From assembly GCA_030829985.1 (NCBI GenBank), contig JAURNW010000021.1:11611-75610 (forward strand): a stretch of 64,000 nt of DNA, written 5' to 3'. Numbering within the stretch: the stretch's first letter is position 1; every line of letters starts with the position of its first letter. Below are positions 15,074 to 29,590 of the stretch, in pieces. The notes beneath the pieces were generated by a model. The model worked only from the letters and a program-made list of their open reading frames with translations. It was not told the DNA's origin and ran no database searches. A program made the position numbers and the translations under genes. Source of the DNA: Gammaproteobacteria bacterium. Its GTDB lineage: Bacteria; Pseudomonadota; Gammaproteobacteria; Eutrophobiales; Eutrophobiaceae.

Positions 15074-15196
15074 TTTTGCACCAAAATAAATTGTAAATTC
15101 GATTAAACATTGACTCGATCTTCAATTATACTAGCCGGCCTTCGATCTGGTTGCTGAATAAGCATCCCATCCACGAATAAATAAAGGAGAATTGTT

Positions 15197-17815
15197 TTGC
15201 TCGAAGCTTATCGCCAACATGTAAAAGAACGTGCCGACCAGGGTGTCGTACCACAACCATTATCGCCAGAACAAACAGCGGCCCTCGTTGAATTATTAAA
15301 AAATCCACCCGCAGGCGAAGAAGAATTTATACTCGATCTGATTACAAATCGCATTCCTGCAGGTGTTGATCAGGCCGCTTATGTCAAAGCCGGTTTTCTG
15401 GCAGCGATAACCAAGGGAGAAGCAGAATCTCCGTTAATTGATAAGATTAAGGCGGTTGAACTCCTTGGTACTATGCTCGGCGGTTATAATATTGTACCGT
15501 TAATTGATTGTCTTGATGATGACGCTCTTGCCCCGACAGCCGTAAAAGCACTGTCACACACTCTGTTAATGTTCGATGCATTCCATGATGTAAAAGAAAA
15601 GGCGGATGCTGGAAACAAACACGCGATAAAAATCATCCAGTCATGGGCCGATGCAGAATGGTTTACCTCCAAGCCACCACTGGCTGACAAGATTACTGTC
15701 ACAGTTTTCAAGGTTTCAGGTGAAACCAACACCGATGACCTGTCGCCTGCACCAGATGCCTGGTCACGCCCCGATATTCCCCTACATGCACAAGCCATGC
15801 TAAAAATGGAACGTGAAGGTATTACTCCAGACAAGTCAGGTGAAATTGGTCCTATTAAACAAATTGAAACATTAACGGCAAAAGGTTATCCGCTTGCATA
15901 TGTCGGTGATGTAGTTGGAACCGGATCTTCACGTAAATCAGCAACTAACTCCGTGCTCTGGCACATGGGAGATGATATTCCCTTCATCCCGAATAAACGT
16001 GATGGCGGTTATTGTCTCGGCGGCAAGATAGCACCAATCTTTTTTAACACGATGGAAGATGCAGGTGCTCTACCGATTGAATGTGATGTCAGTAAACTGA
16101 AAATGGGCGATATTATCGATATTTATCCTTATGAAGGTAAGGTCAAAAATGCAGAGACAGGCGAAGAATTATGTAACTTTACATTAAAGACTGACATCAT
16201 CCTTGATGAAGTTCAGGCTGGGGGTCGTATTCCTTTAATCATTGGACGTGGTTTAACTACACGTGCACGTGAAGCCTTGGGTCTGGAAACGAGTACCCTA
16301 TTTCGTGTACCTGTACCCGTTAATGATACGGGCAAAGGTTATACTCTGGCACAAAAGATGGTCGGTAAAGCCTGCGGCGTTGAAGGTATTCGTCCAGAAA
16401 CCTATTGTGAACCAAGAATGACCACCGTTGGATCGCAGGACACAACTGGTCCAATGACACGAGATGAATTGAAAGATTTAGCCTGTCTTGGTTTTTCTGC
16501 TGATTTGGTTATGCAGTCATTTTGTCATACAGCGGCTTACCCAAAACCGATTGATGTGAATACACACCATACTTTGCCTGATTTTATCCAGACACGTGGC
16601 GGTGTTGCACTTAGACCTGGTGATGGCATTATCCATTCATGGTTAAATCGTATGTTATTACCGGATACCGTTGGTACAGGTGGTGACTCGCACACACGTT
16701 TCCCAATCGGCATCTCTTTTCCAGCAGGTTCCGGTTTGGTCGCATTCGCCGCAGCAACAGGCGTTATGCCGCTGGATATGCCTGAATCGGTATTGGTACG
16801 TTTTAAAGGTGAAATGCAACCAGGCATTACTCTACGAGATTTAGTCAACGCTATTCCTTATGCCGCAATTAAAAGTGGTGATCTCACCGTGGCGAAAGAA
16901 GGTAAGAAAAATATCTTCTCTGGCCGTATTCTTGAGATTGAAGGCTTACCTAATCTCAAATGCGAACAGGCATTCGAGCTATCCGATGCCAGTGCTGAAC
17001 GTTCAGCAGGTGGTTGTACTATTCGTTTAGGCAAAGAACCCATCATTGAATATCTATCATCCAATATTACCCTGTTGCGTTGGATGATTACCGAAGGTTA
17101 TGGTGACGCGCGTACATTAGACCGTCGAGCTAAAGCCATGGAAGAATGGATTGCAAATCCAGTCTTAATGGAACCTGATGCCGATGCCGAATATGCCAAG
17201 ATATTTGAAATTGACCTGAATGAAATCAAGGAACCGTTACTTGCATGCCCGAATGATCCTGATGATATCAAGCCATTATCCGAAGTAGCTGGCACCAAGA
17301 TTGACGAGGTTTTTATCGGCTCATGTATGACCAATATTGGTCACTTCCGTGCCGCAGGTAAGATGTTGGAAAAATCAGCAACGACCATACCAACACGCTT
17401 ATGGATATCTCCACCGACCAAGATGGATCAACATCAACTGACCGAGGAAGGCTATTACAGTATTTTTGGCAAGGCGGGAGCCAGAACAGAAATGCCAGGA
17501 TGTTCTTTGTGTATGGGCAATCAGGCACGTATCGCTGCCAAATCAACAGCAGTATCTACCTCGACCCGTAACTTCCCTAATCGTTTGGGTGATGGAGCCA
17601 ATGTCTATTTGGCATCAGCGGAAATCGCAGCGGTATCTTCAATACTCGGTCATATACCGACCATGGAAGAATATATGGCGTTTGCTGCTGATCTGAACCC
17701 GATGGCTGCAGATGTTTATCGCTATCTGAATTTTGATGAGATCGAGTCTTTCCAAAAGAGTGCCTCACAAGCGCATTCCAAACTTGAGTCAATTCCGGTT
17801 GCAGTAGTGAATTAA
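15197..17815 (+). CDS. acnB: Aconitate hydratase B (bifunctional aconitase 2 / 2-methylisocitrate dehydratase)
   Basis: 872 aa, collinear along its whole length with E. coli AcnB as I remember it ([39 protein letters not shown]). It uses a TTG start preceded by AAGGAG. Confidence 0.95.
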
Positions 17816-17840
17816 ATGGTTTTATCGTTTTAACAAAACG

Positions 17841-17863
17841 GGCGACTTATAGTCGCCTTTTTT
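17841..17863 (+). terminator. Rho-independent terminator after acnB
   Basis: GGCGACT tat AGTCGCC stem-loop followed by TTTTTT. Confidence 0.75.
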
Positions 17864-17960
17864 GTGCTTGTAATTTAAAGGATTCAATTCAAGCTGAGTA
17901 GACCAAAACACATTATAATAATGTTATGTTTTTAACATTAATAACCAGAGACAAGATTAC

Positions 17961-19478
17961 ATGACTACAATAAAACAAGATGATTTGATTGAGAGCGTTG
18001 CTGACGCCCTGCAATATATTTCCTATTACCACCCGGTTGATTTCATTCAAGCCGTTAATGCTGCTTATAAGAAAGAAGAATCCAAAGCTGCTAAGGATGC
18101 GATGGCACAAATATTAATTAATTCACGGCTCTGTGCTGAAGGTCATCGACCTATTTGTCAGGATACCGGGATTGTTACGGTATTTATAAAAGTAGGCATG
18201 GATGTTAAGTGGGATGCTAAGTTATCTGTTGAAGACATGATCAATGAAGGTGTGCGTCGTGCCTACAATCATCCGGATAATAAATTACGTGCCTCCATCA
18301 TGTCAGACCCGGCAGGCGCAAGAAAAAACACCGGCGACAACACACCCGCTGTCATTCACATGGAAATAGTTAAAGGCGATAAGGTTGATATTCAAGTTGC
18401 AGCCAAAGGTGGTGGTTCGGAAGCAAAATCAAAATTTGTCATGCTTAATCCGTCAGATAATATTGTCGATTGGGTTGTCAAAACTGTACCCACCATGGGT
18501 GCTGGTTGGTGTCCACCAGGCATGTTAGGTATTGGCATTGGCGGTACTGCTGAAAAAGCAATGGTCATGGCAAAAGAAGCCCTGATGGAGCCAGTAGATA
18601 TTCAGGAATTAAAGGCACGTGGAGCAAAAAATAAAGTAGAAGAACTACGACTTGAAATTTATGACCGGGTAAATGATTTAGGTATTGGTGCGCAAGGTTT
18701 AGGCGGACTGACTACGGTACTCGATGTAAAGATAAAAGATTATCCAACCCATGCCGCAAATAAACCAGTGGGAATGATCCCTAATTGTGCAGCAACACGT
18801 CATGCACATTTTGTTTTAGATGGGTCAGGTCCGTCATTACAAACACCACCAAATCTTGATGATTGGCCCAAAGTCACCTGGGATGTTGGTCCTTCTGCAA
18901 GACGTGTCGATCTTGATACAGTGACTGCGGAAGATATCAAACAATGGCAACCGGGAGAAACCATCTTACTGTCAGGAAAGATGCTAACCGGCCGTGATGC
19001 GGCACATAAAAAAATACAGGATTTATTCGATAAAGGAGAACCTTTGCCGGATGGCGTAGACTTCAAAAACCGTTTCATCTATTACGTAGGTCCAGTTGAT
19101 GCCGTACGAGAAGAAGTGGTAGGCCCGGCAGGCCCCACCACAGCAACACGCATGGATAAGTTTACTGAAATGATGCTGGATAAGACCGGCTTGATTGGTA
19201 TGGTGGGTAAAGCAGAGCGTGGGCCTATGGGCATTGATGCGATTAAAAAGCATAAGGCTGTATACCTTATGGCCGTGGGGGGTGCTGCTTATCTCGTTTC
19301 AAAAGCCATTACACATTCAGAAGTGATTGCCTTCCCGGAACTCGGAATGGAAGCAATCCATGAATTTGAAGTTAAAGACATGCCTGTTACTGTAGCGGTA
19401 GATGTCAATGGCAATTCAGTCCATCAAACTGGTCCGCAACAGTGGCAAAAAATCATATTCGATAGAAAGTCAGCCTAA
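17961..19478 (+). CDS. fumA: Class I (Fe-S) fumarate hydratase
   Basis: 505 aa with fused alpha and beta regions. It has the Fe-S ligand context CQDTGIV and a C-terminal beta-type domain (GPTTATRMD). Confidence 0.9.
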   Translation: MTTIKQDDLIESVADALQYISYYHPVDFIQAVNAAYKKEESKAAKDAMAQILINSRLCAEGHRPICQDTGIVTVFIKVGMDVKWDAKLSVEDMINEGVRRAYNHPDNKLRASIMSDPAGARKNTGDNTPAVIHMEIVKGDKVDIQVAAKGGGSEAKSKFVMLNPSDNIVDWVVKTVPTMGAGWCPPGMLGIGIGGTAEKAMVMAKEALMEPVDIQELKARGAKNKVEELRLEIYDRVNDLGIGAQGLGGLTTVLDVKIKDYPTHAANKPVGMIPNCAATRHAHFVLDGSGPSLQTPPNLDDWPKVTWDVGPSARRVDLDTVTAEDIKQWQPGETILLSGKMLTGRDAAHKKIQDLFDKGEPLPDGVDFKNRFIYYVGPVDAVREEVVGPAGPTTATRMDKFTEMMLDKTGLIGMVGKAERGPMGIDAIKKHKAVYLMAVGGAAYLVSKAITHSEVIAFPELGMEAIHEFEVKDMPVTVAVDVNGNSVHQTGPQQWQKIIFDRKSA

Positions 19479-19590
19479 TTATAAATTAGAGACACAAACG
19501 AATTAATTAGCAGAAAGTATGAAATACCAGCGTTTTTATCGCATTTTCGAAAATTATATCAATCAACTTTTCTAAAAGAATATTATAGCG

Positions 19591-21060
19591 ATGAGTAATA
19601 CGAACCTGATAAAACAGAGACCTGTAAAGATTGGGTTGCAAACGACACTAAATATTCTGTTACCTTACTTGGTTGAAAAACTACTAGAACAACTTAAAAG
19701 TATCTGGTTTATCGTCGCTTACCTTTATTTTTTCCAAATCGTTATTCTAGGCTTACCCGTTATTTATGCGACGATGGTCACTGCAGGTATCGCCATTGTT
19801 GCAATTGGTCTGATGTTTTTTATGGAAGGTTTGCGTCTCGGTTTAATGCCTCTTGGAGAAACAATCGGAACACACCTACCACGAAAAACTAAGCTACCTA
19901 TTATTCTATTCTTTGCTTTTCTTATGGGTATTGGCGCCACATTGGCAGAACCAGCAATTGCTGTACTTAAAGCAGCGGGAAGTGGCGTAAAACCAAATCA
20001 GGCACCACTGTTATATAGTTTGCTCAACGACTTCGCACTACAACTTGTCGCAGCCATAGGTATTGGTGTTGGCATTGCCGTAGCGCTAGGAGTATTGCGG
20101 TTTTTCTATAACTGGTCACTGAAGATACTCATCATTCCACTTGTTGTCACTTTGACAGGATTGACCCTATGGTCATTTAATAATGAGATACTGAGTCCGA
20201 TCATTGGTCTGGCCTGGGACTCTGGTGCGGTAACTACTGGTCCTGTCACCGTGCCCTTGGTGCTGGCTCTCGGGATAGGTGTATGTCGCATCGTGGGAAA
20301 TGGAGATATGACGACGGATGGCTTTGGCATTGTTACATTGGCGTCTTTATTTCCAATATTGGCTGTATTAATACTCGGGAACATACACTATTTGCAGGGT
20401 GACTACTATGGCGCACCTAACTATATAGGCCAACTAGAATCCTCTAAAGTGGTGGATACTACACTGCAAGAAACGAGTAAGCCTATTTTAAAGTCTGAGA
20501 TCTTTTCCGAAGCTGAATTTGCTCATTACCTTACAACGAATGAAATACCCGAAGAAACAGAGATCCAATATAAAGGCGGTTCCGTTAATTTGGTGGATGG
20601 ACAAATCGTTCATGATAATGCATCCATTATCATCGTTAAAAAAATCAGTCAGGTGAGACCCTATGATGAGAACAACTGGGATCCTCATAGTAACTTGATA
20701 TCGGACTTGCAAGAAACCGCAACTGCTGCTCTAAAAGCGATACTTCCTCTTTGCCTGTTTTTGTTTCTAACGCTGAAATTTATATTACGAGAAAGATTGG
20801 CAGACTTACAAATTGTATTAATAGGTATCATATTCGCTGTCCTTGGTATGGCGATGTTTGGCTTGGGTATTAACCTTGGTCTAACACCACTAGGAACTCA
20901 ACTCGGTAGTAATATTCCATCGGTGTTTGCCTCAGTTACTCCATGGGGAATGCTCGGACAACAAGGACCTCTAATAAGTGATGGTATTGGCGGCAGGTTA
21001 ATTGCCATTTTGTTTGGTTTTTTCTTGGCTATGGTGCCACACTTGCTGAACCAGCCCTAA
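19591..21060 (+). CDS. DUF1538-family membrane protein: complete first DUF1538 unit, cytoplasmic linker and N-terminal part of a second unit; truncated by an apparent frameshift
   Basis: 489 aa and polytopic. It carries the family signature AWDSGAVTTGPVTVPLVLALGIG. The second unit begins around residue 380 and the frame ends shortly after a T6 run (21018-21023). Confidence 0.75.
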   Translation: MSNTNLIKQRPVKIGLQTTLNILLPYLVEKLLEQLKSIWFIVAYLYFFQIVILGLPVIYATMVTAGIAIVAIGLMFFMEGLRLGLMPLGETIGTHLPRKTKLPIILFFAFLMGIGATLAEPAIAVLKAAGSGVKPNQAPLLYSLLNDFALQLVAAIGIGVGIAVALGVLRFFYNWSLKILIIPLVVTLTGLTLWSFNNEILSPIIGLAWDSGAVTTGPVTVPLVLALGIGVCRIVGNGDMTTDGFGIVTLASLFPILAVLILGNIHYLQGDYYGAPNYIGQLESSKVVDTTLQETSKPILKSEIFSEAEFAHYLTTNEIPEETEIQYKGGSVNLVDGQIVHDNASIIIVKKISQVRPYDENNWDPHSNLISDLQETATAALKAILPLCLFLFLTLKFILRERLADLQIVLIGIIFAVLGMAMFGLGINLGLTPLGTQLGSNIPSVFASVTPWGMLGQQGPLISDGIGGRLIAILFGFFLAMVPHLLNQP

Positions 21061-21092
21061 ATGCGCTTGGCGAAACTGTTGAGAAAATCACG

Positions 21093-21479
21093 GTGGGGGC
21101 ATTCCGTGAATCGTTACTTATGCAATCAGTTGCTTTGGGCGTTGCTATAGGCATAGGCACTGGTGTATGTAAGATTGCATTCAATATCCCACTCGTATAT
21201 TTATTACTACCGCCATATATGTTGTTATGTGTTCTTACCTGGATATCATCAGAGGAATTCGTTAACTTTGGCTGGGACAGTGCCGGTGTCACAACAGGAC
21301 CAATTACCGTACCACTTGTACTCGCAATGGGACTCGGCATCGGCGCAAACGTGCCAGGTGTAAGTGATGGCTTTGGTGTTTTAGCATTGGCTTCGGTTGG
21401 CCCAATCATAACTGTATTAACTGTTGGGCTTTTGGTTGCACGCGCTCAGTCCAAAATAGATAACGAAGACGAGTCATGA
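21093..21479 (+). CDS. C-terminal part of the second DUF1538 unit (continuation of the upstream ORF in another frame)
   Basis: 128 aa carrying the second signature GWDSAGVTTGPITVPLVLAMGLGIG. The same frame is open back to 20982 and reads LGYGATLAEPALNALGE from 21024, which matches GIGATLAEPAIAVLKAAG of the first unit. Confidence 0.75.
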   Translation: MGAFRESLLMQSVALGVAIGIGTGVCKIAFNIPLVYLLLPPYMLLCVLTWISSEEFVNFGWDSAGVTTGPITVPLVLAMGLGIGANVPGVSDGFGVLALASVGPIITVLTVGLLVARAQSKIDNEDES

Positions 21480-22654
21480 TCATTACTCGTCACAATATGT
21501 CTGTTGTCACTATTATTATCGGACGACATCGCGCTAAAAAAGTATTGCAAGATTTGTTTGCGGACGGTATTCACAGTGCATTATTGACAAGTGCGCGTGG
21601 CACACTAATGCAAGATAAATGGTACCAAAGCATATTGTCGATGATTAGACCCGAGTTAGCAGTAATACAAATGATAGTGCCAGATCCGTTTGTTGACCGT
21701 ATTATGGAACGTGCCGCCAGGCTTGCACAACTACATCGTTCAGGCGCTGGCTCTATATTCAGTAAACCTTGTGTGGATTTACATGTTAAAGGCACATTTC
21801 CTCTCTGGCCTATAGATCAAGAGGAATTGCCTGAAGATGATGCATCCAATTATCTTTGTGAAAACCTAACTGCAATCTACTTAATCAGCCAGGGTGAACG
21901 AACCGAGGCAGTTTGTCGCGCAGCAATGAATGCAGGTTCCCACGGACCAATCATCCTGTTCTCAGAAGGTCATGGTCTACGTGATCGTCTAGGCTGGTTA
22001 CGTATTACAAATAAACCCACAAAAGAAATAGTTTCAGTTTTGGTTGAAAATGTTGACGCCGATCTGGTATTTGCTGCTATGGCTGAAGTCGGGCAAGTGG
22101 AACACGTTGGGCGTGGTCTTATCTATCGAATGTCCGTACAAAAGGGACTAATCAATATTGACAGTGTCTACTCTAAAACTCGTCATGCCGCCAGTATTCA
22201 ACAAATCATTCGTGCGATTGATGATATTAAAGGCAATAAAGATTGGCGAGATCAAGATTCAATCGCCATGCATGGAGGTGCAACAGCTGGGTTAGGATTT
22301 ATGTCTAAACTGTCTTCTGAATCAGTATGCAAGCCTCGAACGTTAATTTCAATTTTGGTCTACCGCGATAATTCACATGAAATTTCACGACAAATAATAA
22401 ATATGGGCGCGCCAGGTGCTAACATAAATTATTTCCAGTTTTATACTCAAGCTGATAGCACACAACATCAGGAATTCGCGCAAATAAGTATTATAGTTGA
22501 TGAACCCAGTGCTATTGAATTGGAAAAACGTATATTAAATGAAGTAGAACAGGATTTAATGATCTTTACGCAACCAGTTACACATTCCATCTCTTATGAA
22601 TTACCTATGCAAGATAGTACAACCAGGATGTATCGAGGCGTACCAATTAGTTAG
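21476..22654 (+). CDS. Three-domain PII-like (GlnB-fold) protein, uncharacterised
   Basis: 392 aa. It contains three tandem segments of about 80-95 aa with a beta-alpha-beta, loop, beta-alpha-beta pattern like GlnB/GlnK (for example ELAVIQMIVPDPFVDRIMERAARLAQLHRSGAGSIF versus GlnB [35 protein letters not shown]). Its start overlaps the DUF1538 stop (ATGA). Confidence 0.6.
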   Translation: MIITRHNMSVVTIIIGRHRAKKVLQDLFADGIHSALLTSARGTLMQDKWYQSILSMIRPELAVIQMIVPDPFVDRIMERAARLAQLHRSGAGSIFSKPCVDLHVKGTFPLWPIDQEELPEDDASNYLCENLTAIYLISQGERTEAVCRAAMNAGSHGPIILFSEGHGLRDRLGWLRITNKPTKEIVSVLVENVDADLVFAAMAEVGQVEHVGRGLIYRMSVQKGLINIDSVYSKTRHAASIQQIIRAIDDIKGNKDWRDQDSIAMHGGATAGLGFMSKLSSESVCKPRTLISILVYRDNSHEISRQIINMGAPGANINYFQFYTQADSTQHQEFAQISIIVDEPSAIELEKRILNEVEQDLMIFTQPVTHSISYELPMQDSTTRMYRGVPIS

Positions 22655-22743
22655 ACTCTGAAACAATGACCTTGAAAAGGTTATTACTTAATAAGATGTT
22701 TTAATTAAGACAAAATTAACTATTAACATCTATTAAACCTGTA

Positions 22744-23097
22744 TTATTTTTTAGTCGTTTTTTTCCAAATAGATTCAGCCGAAACCTGATCAATTATCTT
22801 TTTATCTGGTTTAATCCCGGAGTTCTTGTCTGCCTCCTCTTTTTCGATCAGTTCTGCTTTCAATACTGCTTTTTTGACCCGAATTATATTACCATTAACC
22901 TCTTTACCATTAAGGGCTTTCATCGCTGCTTTAGCTTCGCCTATCCTCGGCATCTCGATAAATCCAAAACCTTTTGAGTCACCTGTCTTTTCATCAATAA
23001 CCAAAGAGCAAGACTGAATCCTTCCAAAAGTATCGAACATATTTTTTATTTCTTGCTCTGTCGTTGTACGAGAGAGATTTCGGATTAATAATTTCAT
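22744..23097 (-). CDS. RRM-type RNA-binding protein
   Basis: It has RNP2 (LLIRNL) and RNP1 (KGFGFIEM) motifs and a Lys-rich C-terminal tail. I chose the ATG at 23097; the ORF-track start at 23139 adds 14 non-conserved residues. Confidence 0.8.
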   Translation of the reverse strand: MKLLIRNLSRTTTEQEIKNMFDTFGRIQSCSLVIDEKTGDSKGFGFIEMPRIGEAKAAMKALNGKEVNGNIIRVKKAVLKAELIEKEEADKNSGIKPDKKIIDQVSAESIWKKTTKK

Positions 23098-23539
23098 AGT
23101 ATTTAAATTATAGAACAGGCAATGAAGTTGCGTAAACAACAGTTAGTTTATCTCATTTTCAGGTGACTTGTTTTATGATTCCAGGATAACTAATCAAAAA
23201 GTATTACCCCAAAGATTTATTAGTTAAACTGGTAACGATAAAAGCGGGTAGACTATCTTCATAAATCAGCTTAATAAAAGATAAAAGAATTATTTATTGC
23301 TCAACAAGTATGCACTAAATAGTCTGTTAGCAGGTTCAATATTCAAAACAATTTCTATTAATCCTTGAATTAACAGGCTTTTAACAATAATATTTTTTGC
23401 TGTTAAATATCTTTTTTCCATAATTTGATCAAATTCAGGTCTAATTAAGGTAAATAATCTACCCTAACCGGTATAAATTTAATAAAAAGCTAATTGATTC
23501 GCCTATAATATCGCGCATTTTAGCTGAGGAACTGATTTA

Positions 23540-24385
23540 GTGAAATTTAGCGCAAGTCAATTCAGAGAATGGGATCGCAAGGCGATTACCCTGCTCGGTA
23601 TGTCGGGAGTGGGGAAAACTCGTCTCGCCTGCCTTTTGCGTAAATCACACTGGTTTCATTATTCCGGAGATTACCGGATTGGGACACGTTATCTAAATGA
23701 ATCAATCCTCGATAACATCAAGCAAAAAGCGATGCAGATCCCATTGCTAAAACATTTGTTATTGTCAGATTCGATCAATATTGATAATAATATCTCAATC
23801 GATAACCTGAAGGCTGTATCTAGCTTTCTCGGGCAATTGGGTGATCCTGAAAAAGGTGGTTTAGGCCTGAGAGAATTTAAACGTAGACAGGCATTGCATT
23901 ACAAAGCAGAAGTAGAGGCAATGCTGGATGTGCCCAAGTTTATAAAACGTTCTCATGATGTCTATGGATACGAACACTTTATCAATGATGCTGGTGGTAG
24001 CCTATGCGAACTCGATAAAGATTCTGTCTATGATACGTTAGCCGAGCACACTCTGATTATTTACATCAAGGCAACTAAGCATGATGAACTAGAATTAATC
24101 AAACGCGCTGAACTTGAGCCAAAACCGCTTTATTATCGTGAAGATTTTCTTGATCAACAGATTGCTGAATATCTTGAAGAAAAAAAATTAGGTTATGCTG
24201 CATTGATCGAGCCGGATGACTTTGTGCGTTGGGTGTTTTCAAAACTGTTCTACAATCGTATACCACGTTATCAGACTATTGCTGATAAATATGGCTATAC
24301 CATTAGTACGAATGAAATTTCCAGGGTTAACTCTGAAAAAGATTTTCTTAATCTGATTGAAAGTACTCTTGAACAGAATAATTAA
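23540..24385 (+). CDS. P-loop NTPase with shikimate-kinase-like (NMP-kinase fold) layout, function unknown
   Basis: 281 aa with a GTG start. It has Walker A (LLGMSGVGKT). The later segment NDAGGSLCEL...LIIYIKATKHDELELIKRAELEPKPLY parallels AroK ATGGGSV...[24 protein letters not shown]. It lies 11 nt upstream of metA. Confidence 0.55.
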   Translation: MKFSASQFREWDRKAITLLGMSGVGKTRLACLLRKSHWFHYSGDYRIGTRYLNESILDNIKQKAMQIPLLKHLLLSDSINIDNNISIDNLKAVSSFLGQLGDPEKGGLGLREFKRRQALHYKAEVEAMLDVPKFIKRSHDVYGYEHFINDAGGSLCELDKDSVYDTLAEHTLIIYIKATKHDELELIKRAELEPKPLYYREDFLDQQIAEYLEEKKLGYAALIEPDDFVRWVFSKLFYNRIPRYQTIADKYGYTISTNEISRVNSEKDFLNLIESTLEQNN

Positions 24386-24396
24386 GAGAAAGAATT

Positions 24397-25470
24397 ATGC
24401 CATTAGTTTCCAATAGCGCTTTACCAAGTTTTGAAAGATTGAAACAGGACGGTGAAACAATTATCACTGCTGAACAGGCCTTGCATCAGGATATCCGCGA
24501 GTTACATATTGGTTTGCTAAATATGATGCCAGATGCTGCACTGGAAGCAACTGAGCGTCAATTTTTTAGACTGGTTGGCGAAAGTAACCAGATCGCGCAA
24601 TTTTACTTACACCCATTCACATTGGATAAGCTGGAGAGATGTAAAGAAGCAAAAACGCATATTGAAAACTATTATCAGACGTTTGATCAAATCAAGCAGC
24701 AAGGCCTTGATGCATTAATCATTACAGGTGCCAACATGGTTGGTAGTGAACTGGCGGATCAACCCTTCTGGGAGCCGTTAAGCGAAGTACTTGCCTGGGC
24801 ATATGATAATGTAACGTCAACATTATGCTCATGTTTGACGACACATGCTGTCCTGCAATTTCGCTATAATCAAAAACGCAAGCGGCTGCCCGGTGGCAAA
24901 CGTTGGGGCGTTTACCCGCATCGTGTTGTTGACAGAAAACACCCACTGGTTGCCGGCGTAAATACCCGTTTTGATGTGCCACACTCAAGGTTTAATGAAA
25001 TCTACCCCGAACAGTTTGAACAGGCTGAACTGAAAGTGCTTGTTGTCAGTGAAGATAATGATGTTCACCTTGCTGTGAGTGAAGACGGTTTTCGTCTTGT
25101 TTTTTTTCAGGGTCATCCAGAATATGATTTAATCAGTTTAATGAAGGAATATAAGCGTGAGATTGGTCGATATATTGACGGTAAAATAGACCAGTATCCG
25201 AACTTTCCCGAGAATTATTTTTCATTAAAATGTCAGGCCATTCTTGAGGAGTATCAGGACCATCTGGATTGGGCTTTAAAATCAGAAGCCGAACCACCCG
25301 AATTTCCGGAAGATTTGATTATCCCTTTCCTTGATAATACCTGGCATGATACAGCTGAGGCTGTGATCAATAACTGGATTGGCAAGGTTTACCAAATCAC
25401 TAACACTGATAGGCATCTACCGTTTAATGAGTCAATAAACCCTGATGATCCATTGGGTCTCAAAAAATAA
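24397..25470 (+). CDS. metA: Homoserine O-acyltransferase, MetA family (succinyl versus acetyl specificity not resolved)
   Basis: 357 aa with the MetA signature (LHIGLLNMMPDAALEATERQF, GHPEYD). Confidence 0.9.
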   Translation: MPLVSNSALPSFERLKQDGETIITAEQALHQDIRELHIGLLNMMPDAALEATERQFFRLVGESNQIAQFYLHPFTLDKLERCKEAKTHIENYYQTFDQIKQQGLDALIITGANMVGSELADQPFWEPLSEVLAWAYDNVTSTLCSCLTTHAVLQFRYNQKRKRLPGGKRWGVYPHRVVDRKHPLVAGVNTRFDVPHSRFNEIYPEQFEQAELKVLVVSEDNDVHLAVSEDGFRLVFFQGHPEYDLISLMKEYKREIGRYIDGKIDQYPNFPENYFSLKCQAILEEYQDHLDWALKSEAEPPEFPEDLIIPFLDNTWHDTAEAVINNWIGKVYQITNTDRHLPFNESINPDDPLGLKK

Positions 25471-25504
25471 GGGACACCTTTTAATACTGATGTCATGACT
25501 AATA

Positions 25505-26029
25505 ATGGATAAACAAAAACACCTGAAATATCTGGCTTCATTATTATTGAGCTTAATCTCAATAACTGCTTGCGATAGTGACGTTAATGACTCGACAAAT
25601 ACCTTGCCAATAAGTGCTGCCGTGTCAGTCCAGGAAAAGACAAAGGAACAAGCCTGGCCTGTGATAGAAAACAAGAGTTATTTATTCGATGTCTCAAATC
25701 ATTCAATTGAAGAACTTGAAGCCTTATTAATCAGAGCTGAAGAAGTTTCTCAAACTCATCCTGCCGATTTTGATGATCTTGAAATAGTGATGATTCTTCA
25801 TGGACCGGATATAGACTGGTTTACTCAACAGAATTATGAACACAATCAAAAACTGATCGATCTGGCAGCAAGGCTCGATGCCTATGATGTAATTGATATG
25901 AAGGTCTGTGAAGCCACTATGCAAAAAAGAGGTGTGATACAAGAAGATCTACCAGGTTTTATCGAATCAGTTCCCTATGCTCCGACTGAAATCAAGTACC
26001 GCTTACAAAATGATTATATCAATCTTTAA
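25505..26029 (+). CDS. DsrE/DsrF-like family protein with lipoprotein signal peptide
   Basis: 174 aa with a lipobox (LISITAC). The C-terminal 100 aa resemble the DsrE-like (COG1416-type) pattern: VMILHGPDIDWF...MKVCEATMQKRG...ESVPYAPTEI. Confidence 0.5.
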   Translation: MDKQKHLKYLASLLLSLISITACDSDVNDSTNTLPISAAVSVQEKTKEQAWPVIENKSYLFDVSNHSIEELEALLIRAEEVSQTHPADFDDLEIVMILHGPDIDWFTQQNYEHNQKLIDLAARLDAYDVIDMKVCEATMQKRGVIQEDLPGFIESVPYAPTEIKYRLQNDYINL

Positions 26030-26059
26030 TCTTTTGATTTATCACTTAAGGCATCCGTC

Positions 26060-26572
26060 ATGGTAAAGCAAGAAAAAAGTTTACACATGACTGTACTGAT
26101 GACACCTGATCTGGCTAATTTTTCAGGTAATGTTCATGGTGGATCGATATTAAAATTACTGGACCAGGTCGCATATGCTTGTGCTGCACGTTACTGTAAA
26201 TCTTACGTTGTGACGATCTCTCTGGATCAAGTAACATTTAAAGAACCTATTAAAGTCGGTGAACTTGTCAGCTTCCGTGCACATGTAAATTATGTAGGTA
26301 ATTCATCACTGGAAGTGGGTGTTAAGGTTTTTACTGAAGACCTGCATACCAAAAAAGTTCGCCATACCAACTCTTGCTATGTAAATATGATCGCTATGGG
26401 TGAAGACGGCAAACGTATATCAGCACCGCCCCTGGAACTGGAAAATGAATTTGAGAAAAAACTTTACGAAGCGGCTGTAATGCGTAAAGAATTACGTGAA
26501 GAAGCTGTAAGACGTAATAAAGAAATTACTGACGGTATCCCTGATTATAATTCAGATTTGGATGTTAGTTAA
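26060..26572 (+). CDS. Acyl-CoA thioesterase (hotdog fold, YciA-like)
   Basis: 170 aa with the motif GNVHGGSILKLLDQVAYACA, typical of YciA/BFIT-type thioesterases. Confidence 0.8.
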   Translation: MVKQEKSLHMTVLMTPDLANFSGNVHGGSILKLLDQVAYACAARYCKSYVVTISLDQVTFKEPIKVGELVSFRAHVNYVGNSSLEVGVKVFTEDLHTKKVRHTNSCYVNMIAMGEDGKRISAPPLELENEFEKKLYEAAVMRKELREEAVRRNKEITDGIPDYNSDLDVS

Positions 26573-27524
26573 AATGTGTATATGCTTTTGTATTAATCTC
26601 ACAACGTTCATCATCTTCATTCATAAAATAGAGTTCTGATGTTTTATTGGTAATAGCGCCAATACAATAAATTGGACAAATAGATTTCAAATCCTTTATT
26701 GCAGATTCCGGTATTCCACTCGGAAGCGTAAAACATAATTCATAATCATCCCCTCCGGTTAAAGCCAGTTCCAATGCCAATTCTCGATCTATTTTTTTAA
26801 GGCTATCAGAACAGGGAATATCGGATAGTTTGACTTCAGCACCAACCTTACTCGCATTAAGAATATGACCAAGATCAGCTAACAAACCATCGGATATATC
26901 TATACAACTAGTTGCTATATCGCGTAATACAGTACCTGTTCTTATTCTGGGCACGGGGCAATTTAATCGTTGAATTTCTATCTCGGTAGGTGCTGGAAAT
27001 AATACGCTATCTTGTATATGTCTTAATGCATAAGCGGCTGCGCCGAGATTACCAGTAACATAAATCAAGTCACCTGCATTAGCGCCACTTCGTCTCAGAG
27101 ACTTGCCTTTAGGATTAGTTCCGTGTGCTTGTATAGTAATAGACAATGGACCTTTACTTAGATCGCCACCAATTAGAATTAAGGAATATTCTTCAGCTAA
27201 TTTATTAAAACTTGAGGAGAATTTTTCTATCCATACGATATCTTTTTCAGGCATGGTTAAGGAAAGCGTAATCCAACGTGGTGAAGCACCCATTGCTGCT
27301 ATATCACTTAAATTAACAGCAAGTGATTTAAAGGCAATATCTTCCGGTGTAGCATCATCAAAAAAGTGTACGCCAGAGACCAGGGTGTCCATTGACATGA
27401 CCAGTTCAGAATCATGTGGGACATTAATGATAGCCGCATCATCACCAATCCCTAAAGCCAAATCCCCCTTGCTGGAGGGGTAAGATTGCTTGAAGAATTT
27501 TTCTATTATCTCAAATTCATTCAA
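26565..27524 (-). CDS. thiL: Thiamine-monophosphate kinase
   Basis: 319 aa with AIR-synthase-like motifs (GIGDDAAI, GGDLS, GGDDYEL). It lies directly downstream of nusB. Confidence 0.9.
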   Translation of the reverse strand: MNEFEIIEKFFKQSYPSSKGDLALGIGDDAAIINVPHDSELVMSMDTLVSGVHFFDDATPEDIAFKSLAVNLSDIAAMGASPRWITLSLTMPEKDIVWIEKFSSSFNKLAEEYSLILIGGDLSKGPLSITIQAHGTNPKGKSLRRSGANAGDLIYVTGNLGAAAYALRHIQDSVLFPAPTEIEIQRLNCPVPRIRTGTVLRDIATSCIDISDGLLADLGHILNASKVGAEVKLSDIPCSDSLKKIDRELALELALTGGDDYELCFTLPSGIPESAIKDLKSICPIYCIGAITNKTSELYFMNEDDERCEINTKAYTHFN

Positions 27525-27533
27525 GAGCTGTCA

Positions 27534-27989
27534 CTATCTAACATTGTTGATTTCTGTGGCGCGTAATTCTTTTGCAATCTTATCAAGAATGCCATTGATA
27601 TATTTGTGTGATTGATCTGCACCAAACATCTTGGCTAATTCAATTGATTCATTCACTACTACACGCCAGGGTATTTCAAGATGATGTTCCAATTCATAAC
27701 AACCAATATGTAAAATTGCTCGCTCAATTGCATCAAGTTCTTTTACTGGCCTGTCGATTAAATTAACCAATCTCGAATCAAGTTGACTGCTATTTTTTAT
27801 TGTTCCTCTTAACAGCAATTTAAAATATTCTACATCGGTCTTTGCCAGTGTCTGTTCATCGCTCTCAAATTCAGCAATAACATCGGCAACATCTTTGCCT
27901 GTCATAAACCACCCATATAATGCCTGAACTGTATTGCGTCTGGCCTTGATACGTGCTCGTTTACTAATTGCTGGTGCATTAGCACTCAT
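27534..27989 (-). CDS. nusB: Transcription antitermination factor NusB
   Basis: 151 aa with the NusB pattern (ARRNTVQALYGW, FVNGILDK-like). The ribH-nusB order is conserved. Confidence 0.9.
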   Translation of the reverse strand: MSANAPAISKRARIKARRNTVQALYGWFMTGKDVADVIAEFESDEQTLAKTDVEYFKLLLRGTIKNSSQLDSRLVNLIDRPVKELDAIERAILHIGCYELEHHLEIPWRVVVNESIELAKMFGADQSHKYINGILDKIAKELRATEINNVR

Positions 27990-28465
27990 GATTTTATTTT
28001 TTCCAGTACACTAATCATCTCTAATGCCGCTGCTGCCGCTTCAGAACCTTTGTTACTCTCTTCATCACCAGCCCGATCCAAAGCCTGTTCAACATTGTCC
28101 ACGGTTAATACACCAAAAATAACAGGGATACCGGAATTTATCGCCAACTGGGAAATACCATGCGTACATTCATTTGAGATGAAATCAAAATGCGGTGTCT
28201 CACCCCGGATTATTGCACCCAAGGTGATTACTGCATTAAATTCATTCTTATCAAGCAATGCTTGTACAGCCACCGGAATTTCAAACGCGCCAGGCACTTT
28301 AACAACAGTGATTGCATCTCCTTCAACACCGTTTTGTTTAAGAGTTTTTATAGCACCCGCATATAATTTATCAACGATGAAGCTGTTAAAACGACTGGCG
28401 ACGATAGCAATCCTGGTGGATCCTTCGTAAATCCCTTTTTGTTCAACTATTCTAATAGCAGACAT
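27986..28465 (-). CDS. ribH: 6,7-dimethyl-8-ribityllumazine synthase
   Basis: 159 aa with the motifs IAIVASRFN, VPGAFEIP and GETPHFDF. Confidence 0.95.
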   Translation of the reverse strand: MSAIRIVEQKGIYEGSTRIAIVASRFNSFIVDKLYAGAIKTLKQNGVEGDAITVVKVPGAFEIPVAVQALLDKNEFNAVITLGAIIRGETPHFDFISNECTHGISQLAINSGIPVIFGVLTVDNVEQALDRAGDEESNKGSEAAAAALEMISVLEKIKS

Positions 28466-28483
28466 AGTGTTATATATTATTTT

Positions 28484-29590
28484 TTAATTTACGTATTCAA
28501 TAACTTCAAGACCGAAGCCGGATAAGGCGTGTATGCGTTTAGGTGCACTAAGCACACGCATTTTCCTGACACCCAAATCAGAAAGAATCTGTGCGCCTAA
28601 ACCAATAGTACGTAGATCTTTACTGCTTTCATTATTGCTTGTTTCTTTTTGTTGCTTGTTAGTCTGGTATGACTCGATTTGATTGATCAATTCAATAGGC
28701 TCAAATTGATTACATAAAATAACCAAAATGCCAGAGTCTTCATCAGCAAGACGCCGTAGCACATCATCTACAGGCCAACCTCGATCTTTGGCAAGACTAC
28801 CCGTTAGATCCGATATTGGATTTTCCAAATGAACTCGAACCAATGTTGGTGTCTCAGGATCAATTTTACCTTTCACTAAAGCAAGGTGTAACTTTTTTTC
28901 CAACTTATCCTGATAAGCATGTAGTACAAATTCGCCATACTCGGTTGGTAGAACTGATTCGGTCATGTGTTCGACAGTTTTTTCATTTTCTATGCGATAA
29001 CGAATCAGGTCTGCGATCGTTCCAATTTTAAGTCCGTGCTCCTTGGCAAATATTTCCAGATCAGGGCGCCTTGCCATTGAACCATCATCATTTAATATTT
29101 CGACTATAACGGCTGATGATTGTAAACCGGCTAATCTTGCCAGATCGCACCCGGCCTCGGTATGTCCAGCCCGTGATAAGACACCGCCCGGTTGTGCCAT
29201 TAATGGGAAAACATGACCTGGCTGTACGAGATCTGCTGGTTTAGCTTCTGGGGCTACAGCCTTTTGAATTGTTAATGCACGATCCGCAGCTGAAATACCG
29301 GTAGTCACACCTTCAGCAGCTTCAATAGAAACAGTAAAGTTGGTTGAAAAGTTGGAATTTGAATGACTGGTCATTAGTGGCAAATTTAATTTCTGGCAAT
29401 GCTCACCGGTCAAGGTCAGACAGATCAATCCACGTCCAAAGCGCGCCATGAAGTTGATATCATCCGAACGGACACATGACGCAGCGATAATCAAGTCACC
29501 TTCATTTTCGCGATCTTCATCATCCATCAATATGACCATACGGCCATTACTGATTTCATCTATTATTTCTGACGTGGTATTTAATGACAT
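28484..29590 (-). CDS. ribBA: Bifunctional 3,4-dihydroxy-2-butanone-4-phosphate synthase / GTP cyclohydrolase II-like protein
   Basis: 368 aa. The DHBP synthase part has the motifs [12 protein letters not shown] and HTEA. A RibA-like part forms the C-terminal half. Confidence 0.9.

What the first reader, a model, noticed from the sequence alone, without database searches (positions are those of the whole stretch)
21476..22654. Single polypeptide with three tandem PII-like domains (a possible covalent pseudo-trimer)
Seen in the sequence: residues 9-100, 131-221 and 289-370 (nt about 21500-21775, 21866-22138 and 22340-22585) each follow the GlnB-type order beta1, alpha1, beta2, loop, beta3, alpha2, beta4.
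- Unit 1: VVTIIIGRHRAKKVLQDLFADGIHSALLTSARG...ELAVIQMIVPDPFVDRIMERAARLAQLHRSGAGSIF.
- Unit 2: LTAIYLISQGERTEAVCRAAMNAGSHGPIILFSEGHG...EIVSVLVENVDADLVFAAMAEVGQVEHVGRGLIY.
- Unit 3: LISILVYRDNSHEISRQIINMGAPGANINYFQF...AQISIIVDEPSAIELEKRILNEVEQDLMIF.

The three units are highly diverged from each other, and the third has a shortened T-loop-like segment.

Established knowledge: canonical PII proteins are homotrimers with ligand sites at the subunit interfaces.

Inference: one chain with three divergent protomers would give three non-equivalent clefts and T-loops. I do not recall this architecture being characterised.
Basis: partly seen in the sequence, partly recalled or inferred. Interest (0 to 1): 0.7.

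Follow-up and report, generated by a model that had tools for sequence, protein, structure and literature searches.

The report
Three-in-one PII protein beside a transporter
One gene encodes three diverged copies of the PII signalling fold in a single chain, and it always sits directly after a DUF1538 membrane-transporter gene, so it is probably a built-in, asymmetric version of the trimeric PII regulators that control other transporters; no paper found here describes this.

Summary
ORF 21476-22654(+) encodes a 392-aa protein with three PII-type units (residues 8-105, 131-227, 288-373).

- Homology: the units match each other by profile-profile comparison (E 1e-11 to 1e-6).
- Fold: each unit models as a PII fold. 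Unit 3, modelled alone, finds only PII or PII-like structures.
- Loops: units 1 and 2 keep long T-loops and GxG B-loops. Unit 3 has lost both.
- Extra element: a conserved helical segment (about 236-282) lies between units 2 and 3.

The single-chain pseudo-trimer is supported only indirectly. The full-length model has pTM 0.78, and the strongest coevolution signals link different units and link the helix to units 1 and 3. I had no coordinates to check the geometry.

The gene overlaps (ATGA) a fused double-DUF1538 gene, the family of the UmpAB Na+/H+ antiporter. The pair recurred in all 85 loci with enough upstream DNA, in at least three phyla.

My best reading is a ligand-sensing regulatory subunit of that transporter, working like GlnK-AmtB or SbtB-SbtA. 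It is not a GlnB/GlnK: K90, R101 and R103 are absent. I rate it a new variant of a known kind.

The parts
21476..22654 (+). Gene for the 392-aa triple PII-like protein (stop codon included)
   Evidence: ORF. It is 100% identical to P0001. 73 full-length relatives of 345-413 aa were found.
21497..21790 (+). Unit 1 (residues 8-105): PII fold with a long T-loop and a GxG B-loop (L86, G90, G92)
   Evidence: DSSP. Pfam P-II 25.2 bits when scanned alone. hhalign vs E. coli GlnB gives E 9e-6. Conservation.
21596..21652 (+). T-loop of unit 1 (residues 41-59, RGTLMQDKWYQSILSMIRP). R41 is the majority residue in about 90% of 192 family members.
   Evidence: pLDDT falls to about 70 here, as expected for a flexible loop.
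21866..22156 (+). Unit 2 (residues 131-227): the most conserved unit. It carries the family signature G165-x-G167-L-R169-D170-R-L-G173-x-L-R-I-T, then K183-E184, then a P-G-R-G B-loop (211-214; V211 in the window).
   Evidence: The signature stays at 80-90% conservation at most positions although overall identity falls to 18-30%. A stand-alone DUF1538-linked PII (L092) matches this unit at probability 99.6%, E 2e-24.
21968..22024 (+). T-loop of unit 2 (residues 165-183, GHGLRDRLGWLRITNKPTK), the candidate contact with the target
   Evidence: Highest conservation in the protein. Lowest pLDDT within the unit, 51-66.
22181..22321 (+). Conserved helical insert between units 2 and 3 (residues 236-282). 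A239, Q243, A247, D249, W257 and R258 are about 90% conserved.
   Evidence: Helices at 241-252, 257-266 and 274-279. It couples to unit 1 strand beta1 (V11-I244, z 6.5; V11-S240, z 5.0) and to unit 3 (G253-T324, z 5.7; G253-E375, z 5.4; I241-I339; I251-T365).
22337..22594 (+). Unit 3 (residues 288-373): PII fold with a 7-residue beta2-beta3 loop and no GxG B-loop. It keeps the G311-A-x-G314 motif at the alpha1-beta2 junction.
22595..22651 (+). C-terminal tail (residues 374-392) with a YRG motif shared by close relatives
   Evidence: Alignment. Modelled as short strands with pLDDT 58-72.
19591..21479 (+). Partner gene: a fused double-DUF1538 membrane protein, 629 aa when intact. In the window it is split into ORFs 19591-21060 and 21093-21479. 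Its stop codon overlaps the triple-PII start codon (ATGA at 21476-21479).
   Evidence: Pfam PF07556 hits both ORFs. The intact 629-aa gene in 99.9%-identical contigs scores E 2.4e-111 with two repeats. It lies directly upstream on the same strand in 85 of 87 loci.
21018..21023 (+). T6 homopolymer where the window lacks one T compared with near-identical contigs (T7). This causes the frameshift in the DUF1538 gene.
   Evidence: blastn against L005 and L007.

Best explanation
The gene encodes a single-chain PII-like protein. An ancestral DUF1538-associated PII-like subunit has been triplicated and fused, so the usual PII trimer is most likely built from one polypeptide as a covalent pseudo-trimer.

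- Unit 2 keeps the ancestral, highly conserved T-loop and B-loop.
- Unit 1 keeps modified versions of both.
- Unit 3 has lost both and serves mainly as scaffold.
- A conserved helical segment after unit 2 packs against units 1 and 3.

The protein is made together with the fused double-DUF1538 membrane protein encoded directly upstream; the two genes overlap by four bases. That protein belongs to the family of the UmpAB Na+(Li+,K+)/H+ antiporter.

I propose that the triple-PII protein acts as the transporter's cytoplasmic regulatory subunit. By analogy with GlnK-AmtB and SbtB-SbtA, a small-molecule ligand bound in the inter-unit clefts would set the conformation of the unit 1 and unit 2 T-loops, which dock on the transporter and gate it.

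**Shown:** three PII folds; the conserved two-gene module; the conservation pattern.

**Inferred:** the intrachain trimer; physical binding to the transporter; gating through the T-loops.

**Unknown:** the ligand and the transported substrate.
For: **Three PII units.**

**Compact single body.** pTM is 0.78 with unit cores at pLDDT 87-96.

**Coevolution** (mean-field DCA on 255 sequences, effective number 206).
- The top coupling overall is D74 (unit 1, helix alpha2) with K223 (unit 2, C-terminal hairpin), z 12. It is D/E paired with K/R in most sequences, and both charges are lost together.
- The second coupling is R58 (S in most members) with E144, also unit 1 to unit 2, z 7.8.
- K183 (unit 2, aligned at or next to GlnB K58) couples with S373 (unit 3, aligned with GlnB R101), z 5.0. 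When K183 is lost, a K or R appears at 373: (K,T) becomes (Q,K), (E,R) or (D,R). As I recall, canonical PII pairs K58 of one subunit with R101/R103 of its neighbour in one cleft (from memory, not checked here).
- About half of the top 100 couplings link different units or involve the linker.
- The single linker helix couples to unit 1, unit 2 and unit 3.
- As a positive control, the intra-unit couplings fall where the ferredoxin-like sheet order 4-1-3-2 predicts (beta1-beta4: T12-F95, A133-M219; beta2-beta3: Y319-A335).

**Gene partnership.**
- ATGA overlap with the upstream gene.
- DUF1538 lies directly upstream in 85 of 87 loci. The other two have under 600 bp of upstream DNA.
- The same holds for a 27%-identical member.
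- No other neighbour is shared by more than 8 of 80 loci.

**Fusion series.** DUF1538 genes elsewhere are followed by:
- one stand-alone PII carrying the unit 2 signature (L092);
- two PII genes (L094);
- a tandem double PII (L091).

**Precedent.** PII-family control of transporters is described in the abstract of 10.1101/2023.08.10.552651. DUF1538 antiporter activity is shown in PMC5484666.
Against: - No coordinates or predicted-error map were available, so pseudo-threefold geometry was never measured.
- Direct unit 1 to unit 3 couplings are few: 2 of the top 100 (R82-L349 and S89-F334). Ring closure therefore rests on weak signals.
- The test that compared the unit 1-2, 2-3 and 3-1 coupling maps gave correlations of only -0.007 to 0.024, against a null standard deviation of 0.012.
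- Coevolution cannot tell contacts within one chain from contacts between chains.
- The tandem double-PII form (L091) shows that the number of fused units is not always three.
- The GlnB nucleotide-binding residues K90, R101 and R103 are absent from all units, so ligand binding is unproven.
- The window's DUF1538 gene is frameshifted.
- The DUF1538 protein scores far below the UmpA/UmpB equivalog cut-offs (153 vs 490 bits), so its substrate is unknown.
Confidence: 0.6

Rival explanations
1. The three units do not form a trimer within one chain. Three chains associate instead, with each unit pairing with its own kind (three stacked or side-by-side PII trimers) or with units swapped between chains. 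The assembly still regulates the DUF1538 protein.
For: - Canonical PII proteins are homotrimers.
- A tandem double-PII partner exists in Subdoligranulum, and it cannot close a three-unit ring on its own.
- A stand-alone single PII partner exists in L092.
- Coevolution cannot separate contacts within a chain from contacts between chains.
- Direct unit 1 to unit 3 couplings are sparse.
Against: - The strongest couplings link different units, not equivalent positions within one unit. At alpha2 versus the C-terminal segment, the z scores are 12 (unit 1 to 2) and 4.6 (unit 2 to 3), against 2.6-4.7 for same-unit pairs.
- Conservation is uneven. Unit 3 has lost its T-loop and B-loop but keeps the alpha1-beta2 glycine motif, which suggests it no longer needs a full binding cleft of its own (my inference).
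- One linker helix couples to all three units.
- pTM of 0.78 for the monomer.
Confidence: 0.2
2. The protein is an obligatory structural or gating module of the DUF1538 transporter: a permanent cytoplasmic cap needed for assembly or ion conduction. It is not a ligand-responsive PII-type switch.
For: - The gene pairing is strict and the genes overlap.
- The canonical basic residues that bind nucleotide are lost in all units.
- Most invariant residues lie in the unit 2 loop and the linker helix rather than in cleft positions.
Against: - UmpAB alone confers antiport in E. coli without any PII partner (PMC5484666).
- The GxG B-loops and the residue aligned near K58 (K183) are conserved in units 1 and 2. 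The 183-373 charge swap suggests the unit 2/unit 3 cleft is under selection.
- All characterised PII-family partners of transporters respond to ligands (my knowledge; abstracts listed).
Confidence: 0.15
3. It is an ordinary nitrogen-regulatory PII (GlnB/GlnK type) that senses ATP/ADP and 2-oxoglutarate, as some database labels say ('nitrogen regulatory protein PII', 'P-II family nitrogen regulator').
For: - The Pfam P-II hit is above the gathering score.
- Source annotations use these names.
Against: - K90, R101 and R103 are absent, and the GDGK B-loop motif reads GAGS, GRGL and QDLM in the three units.
- The T-loop sequences are unrelated to GlnB.
- No NCBIfam model matches.
- No amtB, glnA or nif genes were identified in the ORF list for window 15000-29000, and no neighbour was conserved across loci. 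The only conserved neighbour is DUF1538.
Confidence: 0.03

Closest known systems
GlnK-AmtB (a PII trimer that plugs the ammonium channel with its T-loops)
   Same: - PII fold with long beta2-beta3 T-loops.
- The gene is co-transcribed with, and adjacent to, a membrane transporter gene.
- The expected logic is the same: a ligand sets the T-loop conformation, which controls transporter activity.
   Different: - Here three diverged units sit in one 392-aa chain instead of three identical 112-aa subunits.
- Only two units have T-loops.
- K90, R101 and R103 are absent.
- The partner is a fused two-repeat DUF1538 protein, not AmtB.
SbtB-SbtA (a PII-like carbon sensor that controls a bicarbonate transporter)
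   Same: - A non-canonical PII-like protein encoded next to its transporter.
- SbtB structures are among the nearest folds to unit 3: 5o3q, 5o3p and 7egk at probability 1.00.
   Different: - SbtB is a homotrimer that binds adenine nucleotides and has a redox-sensitive C-terminal R-loop.
- No such loop, and no evidence of nucleotide binding, was found here.
- The transporter family is different.
NifI1/NifI2 (a 2:1 PII heterotrimer that inhibits methanogen nitrogenase; PDB 9p1x)
   Same: A naturally asymmetric PII trimer with non-equivalent T-loops and asymmetric ligand occupancy (PMC12439982). Its chains appear among the sequence hits of the family profile.
   Different: - NifI1 and NifI2 are separate polypeptides in a 2:1 ratio, encoded in nif clusters, and they target NifDK.
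- Here three different units would be joined covalently at 1:1:1, and the partner is a transporter.
[quoted passage not shown]
UmpAB, the DUF1538 two-component Na+(Li+,K+)/H+ antiporter of Halomonas zhaodongensis
   Same: The upstream partner carries two PF07556 repeats, each related to UmpA or UmpB.
   Different: - The two halves are fused into one 629-aa chain, with a hydrophilic insert of about 110 aa between them.
- Scores are far below the equivalog cut-offs (153 vs 490 bits).
- The UmpAB paper does not mention a PII partner (0 occurrences).
Stand-alone and two-domain PII-like proteins encoded after DUF1538 genes (L092, L094, L091)
   Same: - They occupy the same operon position.
- They share the unit 2 signature (GxGLRxRLG, PEKE, PGxG). 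L092 matches unit 2 at probability 99.6%, E 2e-24.
   Different: - They have one or two domains instead of three.
- They lack the helical insert and the degenerate third unit.
- All of them are uncharacterised too.

Membership tests
PII superfamily (GlnB-like fold, Pfam PF00543) | Ferredoxin-like beta1-alpha1-beta2, T-loop, beta3-alpha2-beta4 fold with a C-terminal strand | tested here: met
   - All three units show this pattern in DSSP.
- Foldseek finds PII monomers at probability 1.00 for the full model.
- Unit 3 modelled alone has 50 of 50 top neighbours that are PII or PII-like.
PII superfamily (GlnB-like fold, Pfam PF00543) | Sequence match to the P-II profile above the curated cut-off | tested here: met
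   - Whole protein: 41.2 bits against a cut-off of 25.
- Scanned separately, unit 1 scores 25.2, unit 2 scores 17.5 and unit 3 gives no hit.
- A profile of unit 3 hits PDB PII chains at E 4.2e-5.
PII superfamily (GlnB-like fold, Pfam PF00543) | Trimeric assembly with ligand clefts between subunits | tested here: inconclusive
   - pTM 0.78 and the inter-unit couplings D74-K223 and K183-S373 point to a ring made of different units.
- No coordinates were available.
- Unit 1 to unit 3 signals are weak, and the map-correlation test was marginal.
Canonical GlnB/GlnK nitrogen regulators | ATP/ADP-binding residues: B-loop G87-D-G-K90 and C-terminal R101 and R103 | tested here: not met
   In the alignment to E. 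coli GlnB, the B-loops read GAGS (unit 1), GRGL (unit 2) and QDLM (unit 3).
Canonical GlnB/GlnK nitrogen regulators | Conserved 19-residue T-loop with the Y51 uridylylation site, or S49 | tested here: not met
   The T-loops are RGTLMQDKWYQSILSMIRP, GHGLRDRLGWLRITNKPTK and a 7-residue stub. They show no resemblance to GFGRQKGHTELYRGAEY.
Canonical GlnB/GlnK nitrogen regulators | Genomic link to amtB, glnA or nif genes | tested here: not met
   - The window neighbours are aconitase, fumarase, DUF1538 and an RRM protein.
- The only neighbour conserved across 80 loci is DUF1538.
Transporter-coupled PII-like regulators (GlnK-AmtB, SbtB-SbtA type) | Encoded next to, and co-transcribed with, the transporter it controls | tested here: met
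   - ATGA overlap of stop and start codons.
- The pair is conserved in 85 of 87 loci and in a 27%-identical member.
Transporter-coupled PII-like regulators (GlnK-AmtB, SbtB-SbtA type) | Ligand-dependent docking of the T-loop on the transporter | not testable with these tools
   This needs a complex structure, pull-downs or transport assays. The only evidence here is the extreme conservation of the unit 2 T-loop.
NifI1/NifI2 heteromeric PII | Two separate PII polypeptides forming a 2:1 heterotrimer, encoded in a nif cluster | tested here: not met
   This is a single polypeptide with three distinct units, and there is no nif context. NifI features are taken from PMC12439982.
UmpA/UmpB equivalogs (for the partner gene) | Score above the NCBIfam equivalog cut-offs NF041627 (490 bits) and NF041628 (500 bits) | tested here: not met
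   The scores are 153.3 and 97.7 bits against cut-offs of 490 and 500. Membership of the wider PF07556 family is met at E 2.4e-111.

The most novel reading that the evidence does not exclude
A natural covalent PII heterotrimer. Three diverged PII units and a helix that I speculate lies centrally form one rigid asymmetric body. It has two different functional T-loops and ligand clefts and one dead cleft. It gates a pseudo-twofold DUF1538 cation/proton transporter in 1:1 stoichiometry, in response to a ligand that is not the canonical ATP/2-oxoglutarate pair. This would be a PII architecture and a PII-regulated transporter class that no paper found here describes.
Probability: 0.3. Interest if true: 0.75.

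Novelty: new variant of a known kind. Interest (0 to 1): 0.62.

Why it matters
- **A natural test of asymmetry.** PII proteins are a textbook case of symmetric homotrimeric signal integrators with anticooperative sites. A natural single-chain version, whose three protomers have diverged into two signalling units and one scaffold unit, would show how asymmetry changes PII signalling. So far this has been seen only in the NifI1,2 heterotrimer.
- **A new regulated transporter family.** The finding links the largely uncharacterised DUF1538 membrane family to PII-type regulation. Only one member has been studied (UmpAB), and sequence search found no related solved structure. This would add a third transporter-gene-linked class beside AmtB and SbtA.
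- **It is common and testable.** The module has at least 325 clusters at 50% identity and occurs in 152 species genomes, mostly marine and sediment Gammaproteobacteria. It occurs in cultured Sinimarinibacterium strains, so experiments are feasible.
- **Practical value.** A monomeric PII scaffold with individually addressable sites could help protein engineers and biosensor design.

Tried and rejected
1. **Pseudo-C3 test on coupling maps.** I put the unit 1-2, 2-3 and 3-1 DCA maps on GlnB numbering and correlated them. Same-direction correlations were -0.007, 0.024 and 0.021 against a null standard deviation of 0.012. Same-unit controls gave only 0.06-0.08. The test is too noisy to decide, so I do not use it as support.
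2. **"Two T-loops for the two DUF1538 halves."** This attractive idea is weakened because some fused DUF1538 genes are followed by a single stand-alone PII, presumably a homotrimer (L092). I keep it only inside the novel case.
3. **Conserved neighbours as a clue to the substrate.** No neighbour is shared by more than 8 of 80 loci. TrkA/TrkH lie next to one distant member, which is anecdotal.
4. **Solved DUF1538 structure.** There is none; only chance hits to Lhcb proteins.
5. **Annotated plasmid records.** There was one hit, in an unannotated stretch. It was useful only because it revealed the tandem double-PII form.
6. **Literature.** Searches for DUF1538, UmpAB, tandem, fused or pseudo-trimer PII, and PF07556 found nothing on this architecture or on a DUF1538-PII link. 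The Borrelia BB0017 'PII-like' lead is a different family, YitT/DUF2179.
7. **Single-chain three-domain analogue in the PDB.** Foldseek with the full model found none. The multi-domain hits (chlorite dismutase, BMC proteins, designed cages) have TM of 0.34 or less.
8. **Model coordinates.** They are not exposed to the scripting sandbox, so the geometry could not be measured.
Full report
**1.

Window 21476-22654(+) is one uninterrupted 392-aa ORF. An AlphaFold2 model built on 57 family members has mean pLDDT 80.5 and pTM 0.78. It shows the PII pattern three times: beta-alpha-beta, loop, beta-alpha-beta, then a C-terminal hairpin. The loops between beta2 and beta3 are about 17, 15 and 7 residues, so the third T-loop is indeed short.

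The repeat is not a by-eye artefact. Sub-profiles cut from the family alignment match each other in register:

| Comparison | Probability | E-value |
|---|---|---|
| Unit 1 vs unit 2 | 97.4% | 1.1e-11 |
| Unit 2 vs unit 3 | 94.4% | 9e-8 |
| Unit 1 vs unit 3 | 90.5% | 1.4e-6 |

Identity in these comparisons is only 15-18%.

**2. Each unit is PII-like**

- Pfam P-II scores 41.2 bits for the whole protein, against a cut-off of 25. Scanned separately, unit 1 reaches 25.2 bits, unit 2 reaches 17.5, and unit 3 gives no hit.
- The family profile hits PDB PII chains through unit 1, and independently through unit 3 (Arabidopsis PII 2o66, residues 292-398).
- A profile of unit 3 alone finds PII proteins for 12 of its 13 PDB matches at E up to 1, best E 4.2e-5. 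The exception is a Cas2 at E 0.24.
- Unit 3 modelled alone has pLDDT 89.1. All 50 of its top Foldseek neighbours are PII or PII-like: TTHA0516, GlnK, SbtB, CutA and DUF3240.
- The full model finds GlnK, GlnB and other PII monomers at probability 1.00 and TM 0.6-0.77. No single PDB chain covers more than one unit convincingly.

**3. What is conserved**

I aligned 192 full-length members whose identity to the window protein goes down to 18%.

- **Unit 2 is by far the most constrained.** Its signature is G165-x-G167-L-R169-D170-R-L-G173-x-L-R-I-T, then K183-E184, then a P-G-R-G B-loop at 211-214, then G224 and N227.
- **Unit 1** keeps R41 at the base of its T-loop and a B-loop with L86, G90 and G92.
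- **Unit 3** has no B-loop glycines and only a stub of a T-loop. It keeps G311-A-x-G314 at the alpha1-beta2 junction.
A239, Q243, A247, D249, W257 and R258 are each about 90% conserved.

The phosphate-binding residues K90, R101 and R103 are absent from all three units. Only the GxG of the B-loop (units 1 and 2) and a lysine aligned at or next to K58 (K183, unit 2) survive. The protein is therefore PII-like, but not a GlnB/GlnK.

**4. Is it a covalent pseudo-trimer?**

I could not read model coordinates, so I did not measure the geometry. Three lines of indirect evidence favour the pseudo-trimer.

This is my inference from how pTM is defined.

(b) *Coevolution.* I ran mean-field DCA on 255 sequences, effective number 206.
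- The top two couplings of the whole protein link unit 1 to unit 2. D74-K223 has z 12: it is D/E paired with K/R in most sequences, and both charges are lost together. R58-E144 has z 7.8.
- K183 in unit 2 (aligned near GlnB K58) couples with position 373 in unit 3 (aligned with GlnB R101). The charge swaps sides: (K,T) becomes (Q,K), (E,R) or (D,R). As I recall, in canonical PII K58 of one subunit and R101/R103 of the neighbouring subunit line the same cleft. I did not check this against a structure here.
- Helix alpha2 of one unit couples to the C-terminal segment of the next unit for 1 to 2 (z 12) and for 2 to 3 (M202-T369, z 4.6).
- The linker helix couples to unit 1 strand beta1 (V11-I244, z 6.5), to unit 3 (G253-T324, G253-E375, I241-I339, I251-T365) and to unit 2 (Y232-I244). 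One helix touching all three units fits a 1:1:1 body.
- Intra-unit couplings fall where the ferredoxin-like sheet order predicts, which serves as a positive control.

(c) *The fusion series.* See section 6.

There are real caveats.
- Unit 1 to unit 3 couplings are sparse (2 of the top 100).
- A global comparison of the three coupling maps was marginal.
- Coevolution cannot distinguish contacts within a chain from contacts between chains.

I put the intrachain pseudo-trimer at about 0.7.

**5.

The start codon overlaps the stop codon of the upstream gene (ATGA at 21476-21479). That gene encodes a fused double-DUF1538 membrane protein. It carries two PF07556 repeats and is distantly related to UmpA and UmpB, scoring 153 and 98 bits against equivalog cut-offs of 490 and 500.

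UmpAB of Halomonas zhaodongensis is the only characterised DUF1538 system. It is a two-component Na+(Li+,K+)/H+ antiporter (PMC5484666). Sequence search found no related solved structure.

The pairing is very consistent.
- In 85 of 87 related loci the fused DUF1538 gene lies directly upstream on the same strand. The two exceptions have under 600 bp of upstream DNA.
- The same holds for a member only 27% identical that has no Pfam hit above cut-off.
- No other neighbour is shared by more than 8 of 80 loci.

This is a self-contained two-gene module.

**6. Distribution and evolution**

The fusion is not restricted to one lineage.
- 152 species genomes encode relatives. Most are Gammaproteobacteria MAGs, and the closest is Thiotrichaceae UBA973 at 85% identity.
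- Verrucomicrobiales and Limisphaerales also carry it, as do the cultured Sinimarinibacterium flocculans DSM 104150, Sinimarinibacterium sp. CAU 1509 and the non-MAG record Verrucomicrobiales bacterium BCK34.
- An exhaustive search with unit 2 found 325 clusters at 50% identity. Most of the top 150 are 360-417 aa (about a fifth are shorter, many apparently fragments), and the hit usually lies at about residues 120-260. Several show three matched stretches.
- One member comes from Candidatus Marinamargulisbacteria.

Other DUF1538 genes are followed by different numbers of PII units:
- one stand-alone 124-aa PII that carries the unit 2 signature (L092; probability 99.6%);
- two separate PII genes plus a SpoIIE-type phosphatase (L094);
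- a tandem double PII (Subdoligranulum, L091).

Unit 2 therefore looks like the ancestral type. Triplication and fusion would have fixed the trimer in one chain and allowed units 1 and 3 to diverge. This is my inference.

**7. Mechanism**

My best explanation is that the protein is the cytoplasmic regulatory subunit of the DUF1538 transporter. It would work like GlnK on AmtB or SbtB on SbtA. A ligand bound in the unit 1/unit 2 and unit 2/unit 3 clefts would set the conformation of the two T-loops, and perhaps of the W257-R258 helical segment. These would dock on and gate the transporter.

- *Shown:* the folds, the gene coupling and the conservation pattern.
- *Inferred:* physical binding, gating, and two live clefts plus one dead cleft.
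- *Unknown:* the ligand and the transported ion.

The rivals are a homotrimer of chains with same-unit PII rings (0.2), a constitutive structural cap rather than a switch (0.15), and a canonical nitrogen PII (0.03; refuted by residues and context).

**8. Comparison with what is known, and novelty**

The system works like the transporter-coupled PII and PII-like regulators. It fails the membership tests for GlnB/GlnK (residues, T-loop, context) and for NifI1,2 (separate chains, nif context).

[quoted passage not shown] Seven literature searches found nothing on triple PII fusions or on a DUF1538-PII link. Database names are only 'hypothetical protein' or 'nitrogen regulatory protein PII'.

I rate it a new variant of a known kind, with interest 0.62. 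A PII specialist would find a natural single-chain, asymmetric PII notable. The module is common, experimentally tractable, and opens up an uncharacterised transporter family. The key structural claim remains inferential.

**9. Side observation on the partner gene**

In the window the DUF1538 gene is split into ORFs 19591-21060 and 21093-21479. The cause is one missing T in a homopolymer: T6 at 21018-21023, against T7 in contigs that are 99.9% identical and carry an intact 629-aa gene. This is most likely a homopolymer sequencing error, but a real pseudogene cannot be excluded.

Noticed in passing
window 21018-21023 (within 19591-21479): The DUF1538 partner gene is frameshifted by one missing T in a T-run: T6 in the window, T7 in the 99.9%-identical contigs L005 and L007, where the gene is an intact 629 aa. 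This is probably a homopolymer sequencing or assembly error, but it could be a real pseudogene.
   Followed up: yes
window 19533: The window has one extra T compared with contig L005, in the intergenic region upstream of the DUF1538 gene. It is a second homopolymer-type indel within 13 kb, which fits error-prone assembly.
   Followed up: partly
L005 4115-6001 (equivalent to window 19591-21479), protein residues about 265-375: The fused DUF1538 protein has a hydrophilic insert of about 110 aa between its two repeats of roughly seven transmembrane segments. Each repeat carries the motifs GATLAEPA and (W/F)DS(G/A)(A/G)VTTGP. I did not work out the topology or the role of the insert.
   Followed up: partly
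L094 3217-7336: In an unrelated metagenome contig, a fused DUF1538 gene is followed by two separate PII-like genes (127 and 111 aa) and then a SpoIIE/PP2C-type phosphatase (543 aa). By analogy with the PphA phosphatase acting on cyanobacterial PII, DUF1538-linked PII proteins may be controlled by phosphorylation.
   Followed up: no
L091 3857-6120 (Subdoligranulum variabile plasmid OY725879.1): A 517-aa fused DUF1538 gene is followed by an unannotated tandem double PII-like ORF of about 238 aa. This is an intermediate fusion state. Its oligomeric arrangement is unclear and bears on the pseudo-trimer question.
   Followed up: partly
L088 7128-9154: Next to a distant member of the module (27% identity), TrkA and TrkH potassium-uptake genes lie on the opposite strand. 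This could hint at a role in cation homeostasis, but it was seen at only one distant member (two near-identical contigs).
   Followed up: no
window 22744-23139 (-): A small RRM-type RNA-binding protein gene lies convergent to, and immediately downstream of, the triple-PII gene. Its counterparts in close relatives hit PF00076 RRM_1. It keeps this position in the closest relatives (L002-L007) but not more widely.
   Followed up: partly
L002 1159-3783: In one related ENA contig the aconitase B gene is broken into about six short called genes, while sister contigs carry one 871-aa gene. This is another sign that some assemblies of this organism group carry many indel errors.
   Followed up: no
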